Made by a program: the position numbers and the translations under genes. From positions 2,458 to 66,457 of the IMG/VR virus record IMGVR_UViG_3300031251_000016: 64,000 nucleotides of DNA. One strand, 5' to 3'. This DNA comes from a virus. The notes beneath the pieces were generated by a model. It did not search any database, was not told the DNA's origin, and was given only the letters and a program-made list of their open reading frames with translations. Below are positions 1 through 58,388 of the stretch, piece after piece. Positions within the stretch are counted from its first letter, which is position 1. Every line of letters starts with the position of its first letter.

Positions 1-1
1 A

Positions 2-844
2 GGACGAGCCATTGAAGGAACCCCCGAACATGAGCTATACGTAGTCAACGCGGGTTGGACCCCGCTGGGCGAGCTCAAACCGGGGGACAGGCTATGTGCG
101 ATAGGTGCGTCGAATTTGGCGGCAGGCGCTACCATCGCAGAAGCGATGGCTACTTCGTTCATGAAGGGTCGAGCCGCACCCGGCCGCGCGTTCGGCGTTA
201 TCTGCACAGGGACGTGTGGGCCGAGGAGAACGGCGAGATTCCTAAAGGATTTCACATCCACCATCGCGACGAGGACCGCGGGCACAACGCAATCGACAAT
301 CTTTTCCTCATGCCGCACGGCGATCACGCGCGCCACCACCGTCTTGGCAAAGAAAGCCCTACGTCCGTTTCGAACGGGCGAGCGGTCATGGAAGCGTTCT
401 GGAGTCGGGCCGAGTGGAAGACCGCCAAGTGCATCGTTTGCGGAGCCGAGTTTCAATCTCGTGCTTTGGTTCCGTCAAAATTTTGTTCCGTCAAATGCAG
501 CAGCGAATGGCACGAGCCGCGCTACGTTCCCGAAAGAAAGACTTGTGCATGCTGCGGTGCGTCTTTTGTTGCCAAAAAGCGCGCTCAGAGATTCTGCTCT
601 AGGGCGTGCAACAGTCGTGCGAATGGCAAGGGTAGCCAAGGGGCGCGCGTCGTGTGCTGCGCAGAGTGCGGGTCCTGCTTCCCGTCAAACCGGAAAAACG
701 CGCGGTTTTGCGGTCGAGAATGCGCCTTGGCTTACCACGACCGTAGTCGCGAGCGTCGAACCTTCGCCGACTTGTAAACCAGTCTACGATTTGACTGTTG
801 CCGACGCGCACGAGTTTTTTGCGAACGGCATGCTGACGCACAAC
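2..844 (+). mobile_element. Intein 1 in TerL at Walker B (N-terminus outside the window)
   Basis: Block B 'EGTPEH..GW..LGELKPGDRL' at 2-96; blocks F/G 'VYDLTVADAHEFFANGMLTHN' followed by Cys (845-847) then DE. Confidence 0.9.
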
Positions 845-2239
845 TGCGACGAATTGGCGGCCTGGCAGTATGCCGAGACGTGGGATCAGCTTCTCTTCGG
901 CTTGCGCCTCGGCAAGCACCCGCGCGCCATTATCACGACGACGCCGCGGCCGACGCCTCTGGTGCTGTCGATCCTCAAGGACAAGGGCACGCTTAAGATC
1001 ACGGGCTCGACCTTCGACAACGCGGCCAACCTATCGGCGAAGACGCTCGAGAAGCTCAAGGAGAAGTACGAGGGCACGCGCCTCGGCCGGCAGGAGCTGC
1101 GCGGCGAGGTCCTCGACGACGTGCCGGGCGCGCTCTGGACGCGCGACATGGTCGACGCGGCGCGGGCTCCGGTCGTTATTCCCGACTTCACGCGCATCGT
1201 AGTCGCGATCGACCCGTCAGGCGTGCGCAACGAGAGCGACACGGGATCCGATGAGGTCGGTATCGTCGTCGCGGCGAAGGGCGTGGATGGCCGCGGGTAT
1301 GTGCTGTTCGACGGCTCCTGCAGGATGTCGCCGCTGGGCTGGGGGCGCCGCGCCGTCGAGCTTTACCGGCGCTTCGGGGCCGACCGGATCATCGGCGAGC
1401 GTAACTTCGGCGGCGCGATGGTCGAGGCCGTCATTCTGAGCATTGACGACAATGTGCCCTACAAGGAGGTCACGGCCAGCCGCGGCAAGGTGCAGCGCGC
1501 CGAGCCGGTCGCAGCGCTCTACGAGCAGGGAAAAATCTCGCATGTCGGCGACCTCGACGTGCTCGAGGATCAGATGTGCTGCATAACCTCGGCCGGCTAT
1601 CTGGGCGAAGGCTCGCCCGATCGGGTCGACGCGTGTTTCGTTGCCGGAACGCTGGTTGAGACGGCAAGAGGAAGCGTGCCGATTGAGTGCGTGACGACGA
1701 AAGACTTTGTGCTTACTCGTCAAGGATTTAGACGCGTGACGTGGGCAGGCCGAACGGGGGTGAGAGAAACCGTTGTCACGACATTTGAGGATGGAAGAGA
1801 GCTAACGTCCACACCAGAGCATCCTGTCTGGACGGGTAGCGACTTCACTGCTATAGCGGCTACGGCAGTTGGAGAGTCGTTATGGTCGCTGACCGCGAGA
1901 AGCGATACTTTGTCGACGCTATTTGCCCGGCTTGTGGAGGCGCGTTTAGGCAGAAAAAATGGGGAGACCGCTCCGAGGCTTGTTCCCGTAAGTGTGCTTG
2001 GGCGCTCCGCAGGGCGCGTCGAGCCTGTCTATAATCTGCATGTTGACGGCCCCCATGAATTCTTCGCGAACGGCTTCCTCGTGCATAATTGCGTCTGGGC
2101 GCTAACTGATCTGTTTCTCGGCGAGGATTTTGGCGGCTTTCTCGGCCACTACCGCGTTGAGTCTGAGAAGCGGCAGGCCGAAGTCGCTGCGAAGAAGGCG
2201 CCGGTCGCCGCGGGCTGGCTGCCGCCAAAGGTGGCTTGA
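2..2239 (+). CDS. terL: Terminase large subunit (5' partial) containing two inteins
   Basis: Frame open from position 2; Walker B CDELAAW, 'ITTTPRP' coupling motif, nuclease 'VAIDPS' and 'SPDRVDA..VWAL'; two Hint domains ending in HN/C. Confidence 0.93.
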   Translation, partial: GRAIEGTPEHELYVVNAGWTPLGELKPGDRLCAIGASNLAAGATIAEAMATSFMKGRAAPGRAFGVICTGTCGPRRTARFLKDFTSTIATRTAGTTQSTIFSSCRTAITRATTVLAKKALRPFRTGERSWKRSGVGPSGRPPSASFAEPSFNLVLWFRQNFVPSNAAANGTSRATFPKERLVHAAVRLLLPKSALRDSALGRATVVRMARVAKGRASCAAQSAGPASRQTGKTRGFAVENAPWLTTTVVASVEPSPTCKPVYDLTVADAHEFFANGMLTHNCDELAAWQYAETWDQLLFGLRLGKHPRAIITTTPRPTPLVLSILKDKGTLKITGSTFDNAANLSAKTLEKLKEKYEGTRLGRQELRGEVLDDVPGALWTRDMVDAARAPVVIPDFTRIVVAIDPSGVRNESDTGSDEVGIVVAAKGVDGRGYVLFDGSCRMSPLGWGRRAVELYRRFGADRIIGERNFGGAMVEAVILSIDDNVPYKEVTASRGKVQRAEPVAALYEQGKISHVGDLDVLEDQMCCITSAGYLGEGSPDRVDACFVAGTLVETARGSVPIECVTTKDFVLTRQGFRRVTWAGRTGVRETVVTTFEDGRELTSTPEHPVWTGSDFTAIAATAVGESLWSLTARSDTLSTLFARLVEARLGRKNGETAPRLVPVSVLGRSAGRVEPVYNLHVDGPHEFFANGFLVHNCVWALTDLFLGEDFGGFLGHYRVESEKRQAEVAAKKAPVAAGWLPPKVA
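94..777 (+). CDS. HNH endonuclease with three CxxC..CxxxC zinc fingers, nested in intein 1 in the -1 frame
   Basis: YLHRDVW..IHHRDEDRGHNAIDNL..H HNH motif; GGGGGA at 82-87 then ATG at 94; stop just before intein block F. Confidence 0.85.
   Translation: MCDRCVEFGGRRYHRRSDGYFVHEGSSRTRPRVRRYLHRDVWAEENGEIPKGFHIHHRDEDRGHNAIDNLFLMPHGDHARHHRLGKESPTSVSNGRAVMEAFWSRAEWKTAKCIVCGAEFQSRALVPSKFCSVKCSSEWHEPRYVPERKTCACCGASFVAKKRAQRFCSRACNSRANGKGSQGARVVCCAECGSCFPSNRKNARFCGRECALAYHDRSRERRTFADL
1634..2089 (+). mobile_element. Intein 2 (mini-intein, 152 aa) in the TerL nuclease domain
   Basis: CFVAGTLV start, 'STPEHPV' block B, 'VYNLHVDGPHEFFANGFLVHN' followed by C; interrupts DRVDA/CVWAL. Confidence 0.92.
1882..2034 (+). 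CDS. 50-aa zinc-finger ORF nested in intein 2 in the -1 frame (endonuclease remnant)
   Basis: Hand translation MVADREKRYFVDAICPACGGAFRQKKWGDRSEACSRKCAWALRRARRACL*; GGAGAG at 1871-1876; below the ORF-track length cutoff. Confidence 0.65.
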   Translation: MVADREKRYFVDAICPACGGAFRQKKWGDRSEACSRKCAWALRRARRACL

Positions 2240-2264
2240 CTATAACTACGGTCTTGGTTATGCA
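2236..2264 (+). promoter_or_regulatory. Putative sigma70-type promoter
   Basis: TTGACT-17 nt-TATGCA upstream of GGAGG and the ATG at 2293. Confidence 0.5.
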
Positions 2265-2292
2265 GTAGCTACCCAAGCCTGGAGGTTAAGCT

Positions 2293-2535
2293 ATGAAAGC
2301 GACTACCCTCGCCCTCGTTTTTGTTTTTGCCCTCACTCCCGCCCTCGCCCTTGACGCCGCGCCGACGGCGGAGGCCCCCCTCTACGACCCATGTCAAGTC
2401 GCGACGACCGCAGCCGACCTCGCCGACTCCTTCACGCTCAACAATCCAGCTAACGACATAAAGGTGATGGCGGACCTTGCTCACGACACGCGCGACATTA
2501 TCTGCGCGAGGCGCCCCGTCCCCGCGGCGAAGTAA
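2293..2535 (+). CDS. Small hypothetical protein with signal peptide
   Basis: GGAGG RBS; MKATTLALVFVFALTPALA leader. Confidence 0.7.
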   Translation: MKATTLALVFVFALTPALALDAAPTAEAPLYDPCQVATTAADLADSFTLNNPANDIKVMADLAHDTRDIICARRPVPAAK

Positions 2536-2540
2536 GATAA

Positions 2541-3668
2541 ATGACCAGTCCCGACATATCCCGCGCCGCGCTTGAGCGGTTGGCTGCGACAAGGAGAAAC
2601 TTCAATTTCGGCAGCGCCGCTGATCTAGTCCTCGCCCTCCGCGACGCGCTAGATGCTGCGGAGCGGGAACGCGACGAGCTTATTGACGAGAACTCGGACT
2701 TGAAAAATGCGCCCTGGCCAGAATGGGCTGAGCGCATGAAACACGCGATACGTGAGGAGACGGGATACGATGGATATGACGACGTATCCAACGGTATTGA
2801 TCTCCCCAAAGAACTCGATGAGATGATTTCTGAGTTGCGGGAGAAACGCAAAGCTGCTGAGCGGGAGCGGGATAACTGGAAGGCTCACGCCATTTCGCGC
2901 GGGAAGCGTCTGCGCAAAACTCGCGACAAGTTCATAAACATCAAAGATGAACTGTGCGACGATGGCGACCGGGTTTATTTCGGCAGCACAAACCACGCTG
3001 ATATGTTCAAGGACGACGTCGAATGGCTTGATGCTTTCGCGTGGAACAAGATTATGGGCGAGCCCGAAGATTGGGATTTGCTCGGGGCGCTTGATAAGTT
3101 TCGATCCGCGCTAGACGCCGAGCGGAAGAAAGTAGCAGAGGAAGCCGAAAAGCTGCGATTGGCGCGAGAGCACATTGAGCTGAAGTGCAGAGAACGAGAC
3201 GCCGCCCGCGAGGAAAATGCGAGGCTGAGAGAGGCGGCGCAAAATCTTTTACGGGATGTTGATCGGGGGTGGACGCTTGGTCCTCCGATGGACGCCCTCC
3301 GCGCCGCCCTCACACCCGCGGATCCGAGTGATCTTGCGGAAAAAGACTATGGAACGCCGATTTTTGACGCTGTATGGGAAGCGATAAAGCGCTGGGACTT
3401 AGATCGCGGGGATTATCCAGGCGCGGCAAACAGGCGCTCTAGCTATGCGGGCGCGACTGGCACGGACGTTCAAGCCATTCTCAACGTCGTGAATCCGTTT
3501 GTCACCGCCGCCCGCGCCGCAGGCCGGAGGGAAGGGCTGAGAGATGCAATTGCGGAGCTTAGACAAGTCCGCGAGGATTTCAGCGGCGATGGAGGTTGTT
3601 ATCGAAACGGCGTGACGGACGCAATTGACGCCATCCTCGCCCTCGCCGACCAGGAGCCAAAGCCATGA
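2541..3668 (+). CDS. Hypothetical mosaic coiled-coil protein (Ead/Ea22-like N-terminus, tentative)
   Basis: 375-aa ORF coupled to neighbours; repeated AAERERD segments. Confidence 0.65.
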   Translation: MTSPDISRAALERLAATRRNFNFGSAADLVLALRDALDAAERERDELIDENSDLKNAPWPEWAERMKHAIREETGYDGYDDVSNGIDLPKELDEMISELREKRKAAERERDNWKAHAISRGKRLRKTRDKFINIKDELCDDGDRVYFGSTNHADMFKDDVEWLDAFAWNKIMGEPEDWDLLGALDKFRSALDAERKKVAEEAEKLRLAREHIELKCRERDAAREENARLREAAQNLLRDVDRGWTLGPPMDALRAALTPADPSDLAEKDYGTPIFDAVWEAIKRWDLDRGDYPGAANRRSSYAGATGTDVQAILNVVNPFVTAARAAGRREGLRDAIAELRQVREDFSGDGGCYRNGVTDAIDAILALADQEPKP

Positions 3669-55939: not shown

Positions 55940-56587
55940 ATGAGTGGGATGGCGTTGGCGCCCAGAGTGGCCGACATTGTGAGGGTTGTCTCCGAGGACT
56001 ATGGCCTCCCAATTTTTGCAATCCTCTCGCCGCGCAAGTCCGCGCAGATCGTCGAGCCGCGGCACGTCTGCGTCTACCTCGCGTCCGAGTTGACCAAACA
56101 ATCTTGGACGCAACTCGGCCGGCACTTCGAGCGCGATCACACGTCGCTCTTAACCGCACGGGCGAACTTCGAAAAGCGGCTCGCCACGGATAGCGCCCTC
56201 GCCGCGCGCGTTGAGCGCCTCGCCGCCGAGGCGCGTCGGCTCGCCGTGCCGGAGATCCGCGAGGCGGAGGACGAGCAGCGACGCCTCGCGGCGCACACGC
56301 GCAGGCTAGAAGACGCGGCGCTCCGGCGCGCGGCGCGTGAGATGAAAGAACGGCGCGAGCGCACGCAGGTCGTGCTCGACGAGCTTCCCAGAACGCCGCC
56401 AGGGCCGTCACGTGACCGACTCGTCGCGGAGGCGAAGGGCCTCGACCCTCGCTTTAACGAGCTCGCGCGCCGCTACGCCTACGCGCAGCAGGCGACCTTC
56501 ACGATGGCGGAACGCGAAGCCAATGCGGCGCTGTCGCGCGAGATCGCGTTCCTGCCGAAGCGCTTCGCCGAGCGCGCGCGTGGTTAA
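55940..56587 (+). CDS. DnaA C-terminal HTH domain protein
   Basis: RKSAQIVEPRHVCVYLASELT..SWTQLGRHFERDHTSLL. Confidence 0.8.
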   Translation: MSGMALAPRVADIVRVVSEDYGLPIFAILSPRKSAQIVEPRHVCVYLASELTKQSWTQLGRHFERDHTSLLTARANFEKRLATDSALAARVERLAAEARRLAVPEIREAEDEQRRLAAHTRRLEDAALRRAAREMKERRERTQVVLDELPRTPPGPSRDRLVAEAKGLDPRFNELARRYAYAQQATFTMAEREANAALSREIAFLPKRFAERARG

Positions 56588-58388
56588 GGCTTACTACAAC
56601 GAGCATGACCCTCACGCTGCGGCGTGGCTTCGCAACCTGATCGCGCAAGGACTGATCGCGGATGGAGACGTCGACGAAAGAAGCATCGAAGACGTCCGCC
56701 CCGACGACTTGCGAGACTACGCCCAGTGCCACTTCTTTGCCGGCGTCGGAGTTTGGTCTTACGCACTCCGACTTGCCGGCTGGCCCGACGACCGGCCTGT
56801 CTGGACCGGCTCGTGTCCGTGCCAACCTTTCAGCGCGGCAGGCAAAAGAGGCGGGGCTTCTGACGAGCGGCACCTATGGCCTGCGTTCTTCCATCTCATC
56901 GAGCAGTGCAGACCTAGAACTGTTTTTGGCGAGCAGGTTGCGAGCAAGGATGGGCTCGCTTGGCTCGACCTTGTTCACGCTGACTTGGAAGGAGCGGGCT
57001 ACGCCGTTGGGGCTCTCGATCTCTGCGCTGCGGGCGTCGGGGCGCCGCATATCCGACAGCGATTGTTCTTCGTGGCCGACGCCGATGGCGGGCTCTCCGG
57101 CGACCGAGGCTTACAACGAAGCGGGGAACAGCGACTACAGCCGCAAGACGGTGGCGCTAGCCTCCTGGCCGACGCCGAAAGCCTCGGACTGCCAGGGCGG
57201 CAGGACGACGGAGACGGCGGGCGGCGGCAACGCGCATCTGGATCGGGACGTGAGGTTGGCGAGCTGGGCGACGCCGGCAGCACGGGACGGCCGATTTGCG
57301 AACGCGAAGACCTACAAGGAGCGGGGCGGTGGGGTGAAGGGGGAGCAGTTGAACAACCAAGCCGTCCACTTAGCGGGTTGGGCGACGCCGAATGCCTCGG
57401 CGCCGGGAGGGACGCCGGAAGCAGCTTTGAAGCGCAAGGAGGGCCTTCCTTGCGGTCAGAGCGTGACGACGCTGGATCATCAAGTTCAGATGGTCGGCCC
57501 GGTCCGACTAACGGCTATTGGAATCTTGCTGACTGGATCTTCTGCACAGACGGAAAATGGCGGCCAGTTGAGTCCACGCATGTCCGCTTGGCTCCAAGGA
57601 TTGCCGCCGATTTGGGACGAGTGCGCGCCGACGAAGGAACAGATGAAACGGAGTTGATGAATGCCGCGCGTCTACGAGGTCAAACCAACCCCCGAAAAGT
57701 TTTGTCGTCACTGCGGCGTAGCACTGGGGCGGAAGCGCATGAACGGCCGCCTAGAGGACCGAGGGGTTTTCCTGCGGCGACAGTTTTGCGATCAAACGTG
57801 CATGGCGAAAGCCATGGAGAAAGAGACCTGCACGTCGGTCAGCCATTCCCGCATGAAGGCCAATCGCACGATGAAACCATCATGCGAAGCGTGCAACGCG
57901 ACGGGAAAGCTACACGTCCACCACAAGGACGAGAACCCGCTCAACAACGACCCGTCGAACTTGAAGACGTTGTGCGTCTCTTGCCACCGTCGCTCGCACT
58001 CGCCGAACTTCACGGCGACAGGGGAACAGCGAGCGCCTTGCGCTCATTGTGCGAAGCAATCTGTAAAGGTCGGTCTTTGCGCCACGCACCTGACGAGGCT
58101 CAGGCGCTTTGGCCATCCCTTAGCCAAGAAGCGAAAGATTGGATCGGCTTGGGTTTTGATGCTGCACGATGGGAACTTGTGGTTCCCTTTCCCCTCATAG
58201 ATGGGTCTGCCTTCCGAGTGGGACCAGGCGGCGCCAACTCGCGACCAAATGAAGGCATCTTCGAAGGCAAGTCCCGCGCGAAAATGCTCCGCGGCTACGG
58301 GAACTGCATCGTCGCGCCGCTCGCGGCGGAATTCATCGGCGCTTTCCTCGATTGGGAAACCGAAGGCTTGGGAGGGGTTATGAAATGA
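56580..58388 (+). CDS. DNA cytosine-C5 methyltransferase, alpha polypeptide (lacks motif IX; about 200-aa insertion)
   Basis: HFFAGVG, GSCPCQPFS, FGEQV, PHIRQRLFF, motif X GYGNCIV; GTG start at 56580. Confidence 0.88.
   Translation: MVKAYYNEHDPHAAAWLRNLIAQGLIADGDVDERSIEDVRPDDLRDYAQCHFFAGVGVWSYALRLAGWPDDRPVWTGSCPCQPFSAAGKRGGASDERHLWPAFFHLIEQCRPRTVFGEQVASKDGLAWLDLVHADLEGAGYAVGALDLCAAGVGAPHIRQRLFFVADADGGLSGDRGLQRSGEQRLQPQDGGASLLADAESLGLPGRQDDGDGGRRQRASGSGREVGELGDAGSTGRPICEREDLQGAGRWGEGGAVEQPSRPLSGLGDAECLGAGRDAGSSFEAQGGPSLRSERDDAGSSSSDGRPGPTNGYWNLADWIFCTDGKWRPVESTHVRLAPRIAADLGRVRADEGTDETELMNAARLRGQTNPRKVLSSLRRSTGAEAHERPPRGPRGFPAATVLRSNVHGESHGERDLHVGQPFPHEGQSHDETIMRSVQRDGKATRPPQGREPAQQRPVELEDVVRLLPPSLALAELHGDRGTASALRSLCEAICKGRSLRHAPDEAQALWPSLSQEAKDWIGLGFDAARWELVVPFPLIDGSAFRVGPGGANSRPNEGIFEGKSRAKMLRGYGNCIVAPLAAEFIGAFLDWETEGLGGVMK
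56662..57657 (+). CDS. Overprinted methyltransferase beta polypeptide (W(P/A)TP repeats plus motif IX)
   Basis: +1 frame inside alpha; four W(P/A)TP repeats; GQLSPRMSAWLQGLP resembles motif IX. Confidence 0.72.
   Translation: METSTKEASKTSAPTTCETTPSATSLPASEFGLTHSDLPAGPTTGLSGPARVRANLSARQAKEAGLLTSGTYGLRSSISSSSADLELFLASRLRARMGSLGSTLFTLTWKERATPLGLSISALRASGRRISDSDCSSWPTPMAGSPATEAYNEAGNSDYSRKTVALASWPTPKASDCQGGRTTETAGGGNAHLDRDVRLASWATPAARDGRFANAKTYKERGGGVKGEQLNNQAVHLAGWATPNASAPGGTPEAALKRKEGLPCGQSVTTLDHQVQMVGPVRLTAIGILLTGSSAQTENGGQLSPRMSAWLQGLPPIWDECAPTKEQMKRS
57661..58200 (+). CDS. HNH endonuclease nested out of frame in the methyltransferase
   Basis: GGAG RBS; CRHCG..FCDQTC; LHVHHKDENPLNNDPSNLKTLCVSCHRRSH. 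Confidence 0.85.
   Translation: MPRVYEVKPTPEKFCRHCGVALGRKRMNGRLEDRGVFLRRQFCDQTCMAKAMEKETCTSVSHSRMKANRTMKPSCEACNATGKLHVHHKDENPLNNDPSNLKTLCVSCHRRSHSPNFTATGEQRAPCAHCAKQSVKVGLCATHLTRLRRFGHPLAKKRKIGSAWVLMLHDGNLWFPFPS
58201..58383 (+). CDS. Displaced original C-terminus of the beta polypeptide
   Basis: MGLPSEWDQAAPTRDQMKAS duplicates QGLPPIWDECAPTKEQMKRS; TAG-ATG coupling. Confidence 0.5.
   Translation: MGLPSEWDQAAPTRDQMKASSKASPARKCSAATGTASSRRSRRNSSALSSIGKPKAWEGL

What the first reader, a model, noticed from the sequence alone, without database searches (positions are those of the whole stretch)
2..844. Terminase intein whose homing endonuclease is a separate gene overprinted in the -1 frame
Seen: intein block B (TPEH..GDRL) and blocks F/G (VYDLTV..THN/C) share one uninterrupted frame, but the ~230 aa between them read as featureless T/S/A/R-rich sequence. 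The same DNA in the -1 frame (94-777) encodes a clean HNH nuclease with three zinc fingers. Its SD (GGGGGA) lies in the intein's P-G-D codons, its ATG spans L-C (cta tgt), and it stops just before block F. Established: canonical inteins carry the endonuclease in frame at this position. Inference: splicing and homing are separated into two proteins from one DNA segment, so the nuclease can be made independently of terminase, and standard gene calling would miss one of them. I recall similar out-of-frame cases in actinobacteriophages, so novelty needs checking.
Basis: partly seen in the sequence, partly recalled or inferred. Interest (0 to 1): 0.88.

Follow-up and report, generated by a model that had tools for sequence, protein, structure and literature searches.

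The report
Terminase intein with overprinted HNH gene
A phage packaging gene carries a self-splicing protein insert whose middle also encodes, in another reading frame, a separate DNA-cutting enzyme; the layout is real and common among related phages, but the idea was published in 2025.

Summary
Window 2-844 is the 3' part of a 336-aa class-1 intein in the Walker B motif of a 931-aa terL gene. A 227-aa HNH_3 nuclease with three Cys4 zinc ribbons (94-777) lies in the -1 frame, behind GGGGGA-N6-ATG. The intein frame across it is an open, T/S/A/R-rich stretch predicted disordered.

The window alone proves little: the open intein frame has P=0.27 under synonymous shuffling. Relatives carry the case. 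Of 80 viral loci with this HNH family, 59 nest it in the same -1 register inside a contiguous Hint domain, mostly in terL. Two use the other frame, 7 are split, 10 are free-standing, and none is in frame. In 15 related pairs, omega is 0.07-0.28 in the HNH frame and 0.67-2.8 in the intein frame. The ATG register is conserved at the Walker B site.

The same terL has a second, 152-aa mini-intein that keeps only the last zinc finger of such a gene, again at -1.

Out-of-frame intein endonucleases were published in 2025-26 for actinophages (endonuclease VII-like) and cyanobacterial dnaX. This is a different nuclease family with much wider spread. Expression, splicing and cleavage remain untested.

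The parts
2..2239 (+). terL (terminase large subunit) ORF. The in-window part of a 931-aa precursor that starts upstream at L002:1901. It carries two inteins.
   Evidence: open frame; Pfam Terminase_6N 9.7e-8, Terminase_6C 8.6e-7
1..844 (+). Intein 1 (336 aa in all; begins 163 nt upstream of the window at L002:2294). It is inserted in Walker B: HRAY|C...THN|CDELAAW.
   Evidence: (Intein_splicing 1.7e-15)
2..100 (+). End of the N-terminal splicing domain of intein 1 (block B TPEH through KPGDRL).
   Evidence: residues 1-90 of the intein have pLDDT >90
82..87 (+). Shine-Dalgarno-like GGGGGA inside the intein's Pro-Gly-Asp codons, 6 nt before the ATG.
   Evidence: the same Gly-Asp codons (GGAGA/GGTGA/GGGGA) sit in the same register in the site-A orthologues
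94..777 (+). Nested HNH gene in the -1 frame relative to the intein: 227 aa plus TAA.
   Evidence: called as a 227-aa protein in the protein collection; pLDDT 89.2
196..339 (+). HNH (beta-beta-alpha-Me) catalytic core, residues 35-82: LHRDVW..HIHHRDEDRGHNAIDNL..HGDHARHH.
   Evidence: invariant H38, H57, N65, N69, H78; HNH_3 9.4e-14; I-HmuI 1u3e E=0.0027
430..498 (+). Zinc ribbon 1 (C113, C116, C131, C135).
544..609 (+). Zinc ribbon 2 (C151, C154, C168, C172).
658..723 (+). Zinc ribbon 3 (C189, C192, C206, C210).
101..739 (+). Intein-frame linker: read-through of the HNH gene in its +1 frame. It is T/S/A/R-rich, has no stop, and is predicted disordered.
   Evidence: intein residues 95-289 have pLDDT <50
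740..844 (+). C-terminal splicing domain of intein 1 (blocks F/G, VYDLTVADAHEFFANGMLTHN). It overlaps the last 12 HNH codons.
845..847 (+). Cys+1 of the C-extein. Intein-less relatives have the same Cys: RAW|CDE.
1634..2089 (+). Intein 2: a 152-aa mini-intein at RVDA|C...LVHN|CVWAL.
   Evidence: (Hint_2)
1882..2034 (+). Relic of a nested HNH gene in the -1 frame of intein 2. Only the last zinc finger is left (CPACGGAF..CSRKC).
   Evidence: E=0.009 against the window's own HNH; blastx E=1.3e-10 to the last finger of the HNH nested at the same terL site in L044; minus-strand control best E=2

Best explanation
A mobile intein in phage terL in which splicing and homing are encoded by two overlapping genes.

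(1) terL is translated in frame as a 931-aa precursor. Intein 1 (336 aa, Walker B site) and intein 2 (152 aa) splice out to give a TerL of about 443 aa. About 195 residues of intein 1 are a disordered read-through whose only constraint is to contain no stop codon.

(2) Ribosomes also start internally at GGGGGA-N6-ATG (window 82-96), in the -1 frame. This site lies inside the conserved Gly-Asp-x-Leu-Cys codons that close the N-terminal splicing domain. The product is a free 227-aa enzyme: an I-HmuI-like HNH nuclease followed by three zinc ribbons that probably read DNA sequence.

(3) The enzyme nicks or cuts intein-less terL alleles of co-infecting relatives near the Walker B codons. Recombinational repair then copies the intein and its nested gene into them.

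(4) The register is always 'HNH = -1' because the +1 frame of this gene is the only stop-poor one.

(5) Intein 2 is the decayed end state of the same kind of element.

Shown: the anatomy, family membership of both parts, conservation of the register and the start site, selection on the HNH frame, and patchy distribution. Inferred: translation, splicing, cleavage and homing.
For: Anatomy and domains.

Frame relation in named phages, from stop-to-stop ORFs: the HNH is at -1 inside the terL intein in Tetrasphaera phage TJE1, Acinetobacter phage Highwayman and Clostridium phage phiCDHM19. Synonymous-shuffle P for zero stops is 0.0004 (Highwayman) and <5e-5 (phiCDHM19).

Survey of 80 IMG/VR loci:
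- 59 nested with HNH at -1
- 2 nested in the other frame
- 7 split
- 2 partial
- 10 free-standing
- 0 in frame

Of the 61 spanning ORFs, 51 hit Intein_splicing, 33 Terminase_6N and 15 Terminase_3. None hits an HNH family in the intein frame.

Across 58 distinct nested loci, shuffles expect 138.8 stops in the intein frame and 0 are seen. 33 loci are individually below P=0.05.

Selection: in 15 pairs at 70-95% nt identity, omega is 0.07-0.28 in the HNH frame and 0.67-2.81 in the intein frame. Differences concentrate at HNH codon position 3.

Window codon signature: GC1/2/3 = .568/.542/.665 in the HNH frame, against .637/.521/.751 for 26 long ORFs.

Start site: 12 of 15 site-A loci have the ATG in the same register, 2 have GTG and 1 is shifted by two codons. 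8 of the top 23 database relatives start at the same Met. An upstream HNH-frame stop lies no more than 4 codons from the start in 32 of 58 loci.

Folds: HNH model pLDDT 89.2. The only PDB sequence hit and the top Foldseek hit is I-HmuI. In the intein model the splicing domains have pLDDT >90 and the linker <50.

Mobility: the nearest terL relatives (60% and 49-51% identity) lack both inteins. Others at 44-49% carry an intein at one site only. HNH sequences group by insertion site.

Not an assembly error: an independent assembly of run X1 is identical over window 1-2300 at depth 36, with no indels (the run may be the window's own source).
Against: - No expression evidence of any kind.
- In the window alone the open intein frame is compatible with chance (P=0.27).
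- No close relative of this particular copy exists (best 44% identity in 1.84 billion representatives). Selection was therefore measured in other lineages, not this one.
- dN/dS on overlapping frames is biased, and the 15 pairs are not phylogenetically independent.
- The 'observed 0 stops' is partly circular, because nesting was defined by an open frame.
- The 80 loci are the best of 286 confirmed relatives found with two peptide patterns, and they include at least six identical or near-identical pairs.
- Similarity to I-HmuI is weak (E 0.0027 by sequence; Foldseek E 0.014, TM 0.28-0.35).
- Free-standing relatives lie between terL and portal in 5 of 5 loci looked at. That is also where packaging-helper HNH genes sit.
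- No promoter-like site and no conserved RNA structure was found at the start.
Confidence: 0.8

Rival explanations
1. The nested HNH of this particular phage is a silent or decaying passenger, at a late stage of the homing cycle. The intein still splices, but the nuclease is no longer made or no longer active.
For: The same gene holds a mini-intein with a deleted HNH, so decay does happen in this lineage. The window-only test of the open frame is not significant. No RNA evidence exists.
Against: The ORF is full length. It keeps every invariant and nearly invariant column of the 23-protein family alignment, the SD-ATG in the conserved register, and a coding-like GC3 signature. It folds with pLDDT 89.2.
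Confidence: 0.1
2. The HNH is not selfish. It is a packaging cofactor that works with TerL, like the HNH proteins next to terminase genes in HK97-like phages, and it is kept inside terL for co-expression.
For: Free-standing relatives sit between terL and portal in 5 of 5 loci examined (also the PAE1 annotation). HNH genes next to cos and terminase are described in the abstract of PMC3592412 (listing).
Against: - It always lies inside a Hint domain between the splicing blocks.
- Closely related terL genes lack it altogether.
- It occurs at several different terL sites, and the sequences group by site.
- Its one solved relative is a homing nickase.
- It carries a three-finger DNA-reading array.
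- It has decayed in intein 2 of the same gene without loss of the terL frame.
Confidence: 0.06
3. The HNH is made as a fusion by -1 ribosomal frameshifting from the intein frame (N-extein + N-intein + HNH), not by internal initiation.
For: In the window the HNH frame is open from position 55, 13 codons before the ATG. A G-run (CCG GGG GAC) lies there.
Against: - There is no canonical X XXY YYZ heptamer (read).
- In 32 of 58 relatives a stop lies no more than 4 codons before the start.
- In 8 of 15 site-A loci it lies 1-2 codons before the ATG.
- Database relatives begin at this Met.
Confidence: 0.02
4. It is an artefact: two compensating indel errors in the assembly moved an ordinary in-frame HNH intein out of frame.
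For: A single metagenomic record. The only run found may be its own source.
Against: The same offset is seen in 59 independent loci and 3 cultured-phage genomes. A second assembler gives the same letters at depth 36 with no indel. The relic in intein 2 keeps the same offset.
Confidence: 0.01

Closest known systems
[quoted passage not shown]
   Same: - The nuclease gene is on the same strand, between the splicing blocks.
- It sits in frame 3 (= -1) of an intein whose own frame stays open and folds into nothing recognisable there.
- terL is among the hosts.
- The proposed origin is invasion of an intein by a free-standing HEG.
   Different: - The nuclease family differs. Here it is HNH_3 (23 of 23 family members; 0 hit Endonuclease_7) plus three zinc ribbons.
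- The hosts here are not PhagesDB actinophages, apart from TJE1.
- The arrangement here is the rule for the family (59 of 80 loci), whereas the paper calls it rare.
- A clear SD-ATG is present here.
- The paper's supplements (phage lists, structures) could not be opened, so identity of the two sets is excluded only by domain signature.
Hidden out-of-frame HNH in a phage DNA methylase, the 'ShiLan domain' (Arsenault et al., Genes 2025, PMC11855218; abstract and Discussion read)
   Same: An HNH gene is overprinted on a host ORF that stays open across it. The product is thought to arise by separate initiation.
   Different: That case has no splicing domain, so the insert stays in the host protein, and no RBS was detected. 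Here the read-through is removed by protein splicing. The same window also holds a methylase case of this kind (56412-58388).
Cyanobacterial dnaX intein with out-of-frame homing endonuclease (Phillips et al., bioRxiv 10.64898/2026.09.14.751524; abstract and found passages read)
   Same: An intein with its HE in an overlapping frame under purifying selection, sporadically distributed.
   Different: Its host is a cellular replication gene. The terms HNH, zinc and terminase do not occur in its text. The related earlier reports concern an antisense LAGLIDADG.
Fractured genes: split inteins with a free-standing HEG between the halves (Dassa et al., NAR 2009, PMC2677866; passages read)
   Same: A free-standing type of nuclease gene lies between the N- and C-splicing parts. 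Seven relatives here and Vibrio phage 1.238.A have exactly this split form with the same HNH family.
   Different: In the window the host frame is continuous, so the intein is not split. The nucleases in that paper are GIY-YIG or Vsr-like, not HNH.
Canonical bifunctional inteins with an in-frame LAGLIDADG or HNH domain
   Same: The nuclease coding sequence occupies the same position, between block B and block F.
   Different: There the nuclease is a domain of the intein polypeptide. Here none of 80 relatives and none of the top 150 database relatives is a terL-length fusion carrying the HNH core.
I-HmuI (PDB 1u3e), the intron-encoded HNH nicking homing endonuclease of Bacillus phage SPO1 (phage of origin recalled)
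   Same: The HNH core is the only PDB sequence match (E=0.0027) and the top fold match.
   Different: I-HmuI is intron-encoded and has a different DNA-binding tail. Similarity covers only residues 24-89.

Membership tests
Class-1 intein (Hint fold) | Cys/Ser/Thr at position 1 and Cys/Ser/Thr at +1 | tested here: met
   C1 (CLVGETLV) and C+1 (CDELAAW). C1 is invariant in 12 orthologues.
Class-1 intein (Hint fold) | Block B TxxH and terminal His-Asn (block G) | tested here: met
   TPEH and THN. T62, H65, H335 and N336 are invariant. Pfam Intein_splicing 1.7e-15, above the cut-off.
Class-1 intein (Hint fold) | Folded Hint domain formed by the N and C parts | tested here: met
   In the AlphaFold2 model, residues 1-90 and 295-336 have pLDDT >90. 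This is a prediction only.
Class-1 intein (Hint fold) | Protein splicing activity | not testable with these tools
   Inferred from intact motifs and from terL being essential.
HNH_3 / I-HmuI-like HNH endonuclease | beta-beta-alpha-Me motif with catalytic His, Asn and metal-binding His | tested here: met
   HNH_3 9.4e-14, 51.2 bits against a cut-off of 24.8. H38, H57, N65, N69 and H78 are invariant in 23 sequences.
HNH_3 / I-HmuI-like HNH endonuclease | Fold resembles a solved HNH homing endonuclease | tested here: inconclusive
   1u3e is the top hit, but Foldseek E=0.014 and TM 0.28/0.35. Profile against PDB gives E=0.0027.
Homing endonuclease (functional class) | Cuts the element-free allele at or near the insertion site | not testable with these tools
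   The only evidence is indirect: patchy presence among terL relatives and grouping of HNH sequences by site.
Intein with out-of-frame HEN (Gosselin et al. 2025) | Nuclease ORF between the splicing blocks, same strand, frame 3, intein frame open | tested here: met
Intein with out-of-frame HEN (Gosselin et al. 2025) | Nuclease is endonuclease VII-like (IPR004211) | tested here: not met
   Only HNH_3 was found. There is no Endonuclease_7 hit at E<=1 for the window protein, nor at E<=0.01 in 23 relatives.
Fractured gene / split intein with free-standing HEG (Dassa et al. 2009) | Host gene divided into two ORFs by the nuclease gene | tested here: not met
   The terL frame is continuous over 931 codons. 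The feature is met in 7 of 80 relatives and in Vibrio phage 1.238.A.
Canonical bifunctional intein | Endonuclease domain in the intein's own frame | tested here: not met
   The in-frame translation has no nuclease hit and is predicted disordered.

The most novel reading that the evidence does not exclude
HNH_3 + zinc-ribbon genes may be a large, so far undescribed class of intein partners that are essentially never fused to the Hint domain. Instead they are overprinted on it in one fixed register (-1), across many tailed-phage lineages and at least four terL sites.

The register would be fixed because the +1 frame of the nuclease gene is the only one that can be kept stop-free. The start signal would be built into the conserved Gly-Asp codons of the splicing domain.

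Free-standing, nested and split forms would interconvert repeatedly. That would give a living series for how inteins acquire nucleases and how split inteins arise.
Probability: 0.45. Interest if true: 0.72.

Novelty: new variant of a known kind. Interest (0 to 1): 0.58.

Why it matters
The origin of the intein-nuclease partnership is an old question: did splicing come first, with a free-standing nuclease gene invading later? The 2025-26 papers describe the out-of-frame architecture as rare. [quoted passage not shown]

If the pattern seen here holds, one nuclease family supplies dozens of natural examples of each stage. These are free-standing genes beside terL, genes nested out of frame, genes between split halves, and deleted relics. 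Two of these stages occur in a single gene of this phage. The model then becomes testable by phylogeny and at the bench.

It also matters for annotation. Gene callers that forbid long same-strand overlaps will report either terL or the nuclease, but not both. In 3 of 3 annotated nested records, and in the one split record, the nuclease is missing.

Natural inteins that tolerate a disordered linker of about 195 residues are also of practical interest for protein engineering.

Tried and rejected
- Single-protein scan of viral contigs with the HNH found no confirmed relative. The word-index protein search gave only 5 weak relatives. The exhaustive HMMER search and an 11-sequence alignment were needed.
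- Window-only test of the open intein frame: not significant (P=0.27). It is not used as support.
- SD-sequestering hairpin: the minimum-free-energy fold of L002:2500-2600 pairs CCCCG with CGGGG over the SD, but z=-1.46 and 17 of 200 shuffles fold as well. RNAalifold on 14 site-A orthologues predicts no pair. Dropped.
- Internal promoter or terminator: 0 promoter-like and 0 terminator-like sites in L002:1700-3500.
- Expression: no RNA holder listed. The one run found is DNA and may be the source of the record.
- The 331-aa ORF at window 56662-57657 with SWPTP repeats looked like a shifted methylase domain. But methylase homologues align in the other frame across it (query residues 57-406 at about 50% identity), and it has no Pfam hit. 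It is treated as a spurious alternative-frame ORF.
- No paper in the searched library links inteins to TJE1, phiCDHM19 or phiCD119. The search for intein, TJE1, phiCDHM19, phiCD119 and terminase with at least 3 terms gave 4 papers, none containing 'intein'.
- The other literature searches found no report of an HNH_3/zinc-ribbon gene overprinted on a terL intein. Subscription journals are outside that library, and supplements were closed.
- The tree is a quick LG+G4 search with SH-aLRT only. 34 of 79 inner branches are open and one long-branch join is flagged. Only starred branches and counts of forced changes are used.
Full report
**What is there**

The window is bases 2458-66457 of a 66,457-bp viral record with direct terminal repeats. 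Fetching the upstream 2.4 kb shows that window frame 2 is the 3' part of a 931-codon terL ORF, L002:1901-4696. Pfam finds Terminase_6N, Terminase_6C, Intein_splicing and Hint_2 in that frame.

The gene holds two inteins.
- Intein 1 is 336 aa (L002:2294-3301, window -163..844). It interrupts the Walker B motif: HRAY|C...THN|CDELAAW.
- Intein 2 is 152 aa (window 1634-2089). It interrupts the C-terminal nuclease motif: RVDA|C...LVHN|CVWAL.

Both have Cys1, TPEH, a block F/G ending in His-Asn, and Cys+1.

**The overprinted gene**

In frame 1, which is -1 relative to the intein, an ORF runs from ATG 94 to TAA 775-777. GGGGGA at 82-87 lies 6 nt upstream, inside the Pro-Gly-Asp codons.

The 227-aa product:
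- hits HNH_3 at 9.4e-14;
- was called as a 227-aa protein in the public protein collection;
- has 5143 relatives at E<=1e-3 and 19 at E<=1e-30 among 1.84 billion representatives. The best are 40-44% identical and 211-249 aa long (apart from one of 316 aa with a junk-like N-terminal extension), and many start at the same Met.

A 23-sequence alignment shows invariant H38, H57, N65, N69 and H78, and three CxxC...C...C units. AlphaFold2 gives pLDDT 89.2, with an HNH core and three hairpin-helix modules. The only PDB sequence match is the homing nickase I-HmuI (1u3e, E=0.0027). It is also the top Foldseek match, though weakly (E=0.014).

The same DNA read in the intein frame is A/T/R/S-rich. It is unalignable among orthologues and predicted disordered: pLDDT <50 for intein residues 95-289, while residues 1-90 and 295-336 exceed 90.

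**Is the double reading more than chance?**

For the window alone, no. Shuffling synonymous codons of the HNH ORF yields a mean of 0.98 stops in the intein frame, and P(0)=0.27. That frame is intrinsically stop-poor; the third frame has 6 stops observed and 11.4 expected.

Two window-level signals do favour the HNH frame as the selected one. The position with the highest G+C is the HNH third position (.568/.542/.665), matching the genome's coding pattern (.637/.521/.751). In the intein frame the second position would be the richest.

**Relatives decide the matter**

tblastn against 50,697 phage records found 31 records. Several matches fall inside annotated terL genes. Stop-to-stop ORFs show the HNH in the -1 frame of a terL intein in Tetrasphaera phage TJE1, Acinetobacter phage Highwayman and Clostridium phage phiCDHM19. 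In the two A+T-rich genomes the open intein frame is highly improbable (P=0.0004 and <5e-5).

In Vibrio phage 1.238.A the intein frame carries 14 stops, and terL is annotated as two genes flanking the unannotated HNH.

A pattern scan of IMG/VR with an 11-protein alignment returned 80 loci. I located N- and C-terminal splicing domains with jackhmmer profiles seeded from the window's two inteins. The classification:
- 59 loci have both domains in one ORF that is +1 relative to the HNH, so the HNH is at -1;
- 2 have them in the other frame;
- 7 have the two halves in separate ORFs;
- 2 are partial;
- 10 have no intein part nearby;
- none has the HNH in the intein frame.

Pfam on the 61 spanning ORFs gives Intein_splicing in 51, Terminase_6N in 33, Terminase_3 in 15, and no HNH family. 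The loci include at least six identical or near-identical pairs and are not independent.

Over 58 distinct nested loci, shuffles expect 138.8 stops in the intein frame against 0 seen, and 33 loci are individually below 0.05. This is partly circular, because nesting was defined by an open frame. Even so, free-standing genes of the family carry 3-9 stops in that frame.

**Selection**

In 15 pairs of nested loci with 70-95% nucleotide identity, Nei-Gojobori omega is 0.07-0.28 in the HNH frame and 0.67-2.81 in the intein frame over the same bases. Identity is lowest at HNH codon position 3, which is the middle position of the intein codons. Overlap biases such estimates, but the asymmetry is uniform. 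No pair involves the window's own lineage.

**Start site**

Fifteen loci, counting the window's own, carry the intein at the Walker B site. In 12 of them the ATG lies in the same register, GGN GAY NNN NTA TGN. In two it is GTG, and in one it is two codons downstream (the alignment shows the same columns). The intein residues Gly-Asp-x-(Leu/Val)-(Cys/Trp) are thus partly a footprint of the nested gene's ribosome-binding site.

In 8 of these 15 loci an HNH-frame stop lies one or two codons before the ATG. Over the whole set it lies within four codons in 32 of 58 loci. The nuclease therefore cannot be a frameshift fusion in those loci.

**Mobility and decay**

The window's nearest terL relatives (60% and 49-51% identity over the middle extein) have neither intein and read RAW|CDE and DA|LVWAL at the two sites. 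Relatives at 44-49% have an intein at the Walker B site only (L015, L051), at the DA|VWAL site only (L044, L031, L085), or at a third site (L034).

On a quick tree of the nuclease proteins:
- 13 of the 15 Walker B copies, the window's among them, group together (SH-aLRT 88);
- the three DA|VWAL copies form a starred clade;
- free-standing and split forms are scattered among nested ones, with at least 4 and 3 changes forced by starred branches.

Free-standing copies lie between terL and portal in 5 of 5 loci examined.

Intein 2 of the window keeps, in its -1 frame, a 50-codon ORF. This ORF matches the last zinc finger of the nuclease nested at the same site in L044 (blastx E=1.3e-10 in a 63-protein database; best minus-strand control E=2). 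It is a deletion derivative in which the intein frame stayed open.

**Artefact?**

Logan's independent assembly of the one run that holds the sequence is identical over window 1-2300, at depth 36 and without indels. The run may be the record's own source, so this tests the assembler and not the sample. The conserved offset in other genomes is the stronger argument.

**What is known**

- Gosselin, Arsenault and Gogarten (bioRxiv 10.1101/2025.01.02.630785; abstract and sections 8, 15, 28 read) describe actinophage inteins with antisense LAGLIDADG or VSR-like genes. [quoted passage not shown] They call these rare and propose invasion of inteins by free-standing nuclease genes.
- Arsenault et al. 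(PMC11855218) describe a hidden out-of-frame HNH in a phage methylase.
- Phillips et al. (10.64898/2026.09.14.751524) describe an out-of-frame endonuclease in the cyanobacterial dnaX intein.
- Dassa et al. (PMC2677866) describe split inteins with GIY-YIG or Vsr-like genes between the halves.

The architecture is therefore in print. The nuclease family here is different: 23 of 23 members hit HNH_3 and none hits Endonuclease_7. The arrangement is the rule for this family rather than the exception, and it reaches well beyond actinophages. Five searches of the paper library found no description of it. Supplements and subscription journals could not be checked.

**Verdict**

The function (translation, splicing, cleavage, homing) is inferred. 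It is a new variant of a kind published in 2025, more widespread than the literature suggests.

Noticed in passing
window 56412-58388 (+), with nested ORF 57661-58200 (+): A second overprinted HNH lies in the same phage. A 658-aa C-5 cytosine DNA methylase ORF (PF00145 6.9e-12) aligns with homologues over residues 57-406 at about 50% identity. It stays open across an insert of about 190 codons. In another frame (+1 relative to the methylase) that insert encodes a 179-aa HNH protein (PF01844 1e-4, above the cut-off). No splicing domain was seen. It resembles the published 'ShiLan domain' hidden HNH (PMC11855218).
   Followed up: partly
window 1634-2089, ORF 1882-2034: The second terL intein is a 152-aa mini-intein. 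Its -1 frame keeps only the last zinc finger of a nested HNH gene, so it is a deletion relic. Its best match is the nuclease nested at the same terL site in L044.
   Followed up: yes
L004 (Vibrio phage 1.238.A, NC_055735.1) 2471-3202; also L032, L037, L039, L056, L065, L072, L074: The same HNH family lies between separately encoded N- and C-terminal intein halves of terL, a 'fractured gene' arrangement. In the Vibrio record the nuclease ORF is not annotated.
   Followed up: partly
L075:1564-2121 and L078:518-1078: Two closely related loci nest the HNH in the other alternative frame (intein +2 relative to HNH), although that frame is normally stop-rich. They form a starred pair within a group of -1 nested copies on the tree.
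   Followed up: no
L043, L046, L059, L071, L089: Free-standing members of the HNH family sit between terL and the portal gene, twice on the opposite strand to both.
   Followed up: partly
L017-L025 (site-A orthologues): A sub-group of Walker B inteins is about 277 aa and carries a shorter nested nuclease (173-178 aa from the conserved ATG). It lacks the N-terminal MCxxCVEF hairpin and has fewer zinc fingers than the window's.
   Followed up: no
window 56662-57657 (+): A 331-aa ORF with repeated SWPTP/SWATP motifs overlaps the methylase in another frame. It has no Pfam hit, and methylase homologues align in the other frame, so it is probably a chance ORF of G+C-rich DNA.
   Followed up: partly
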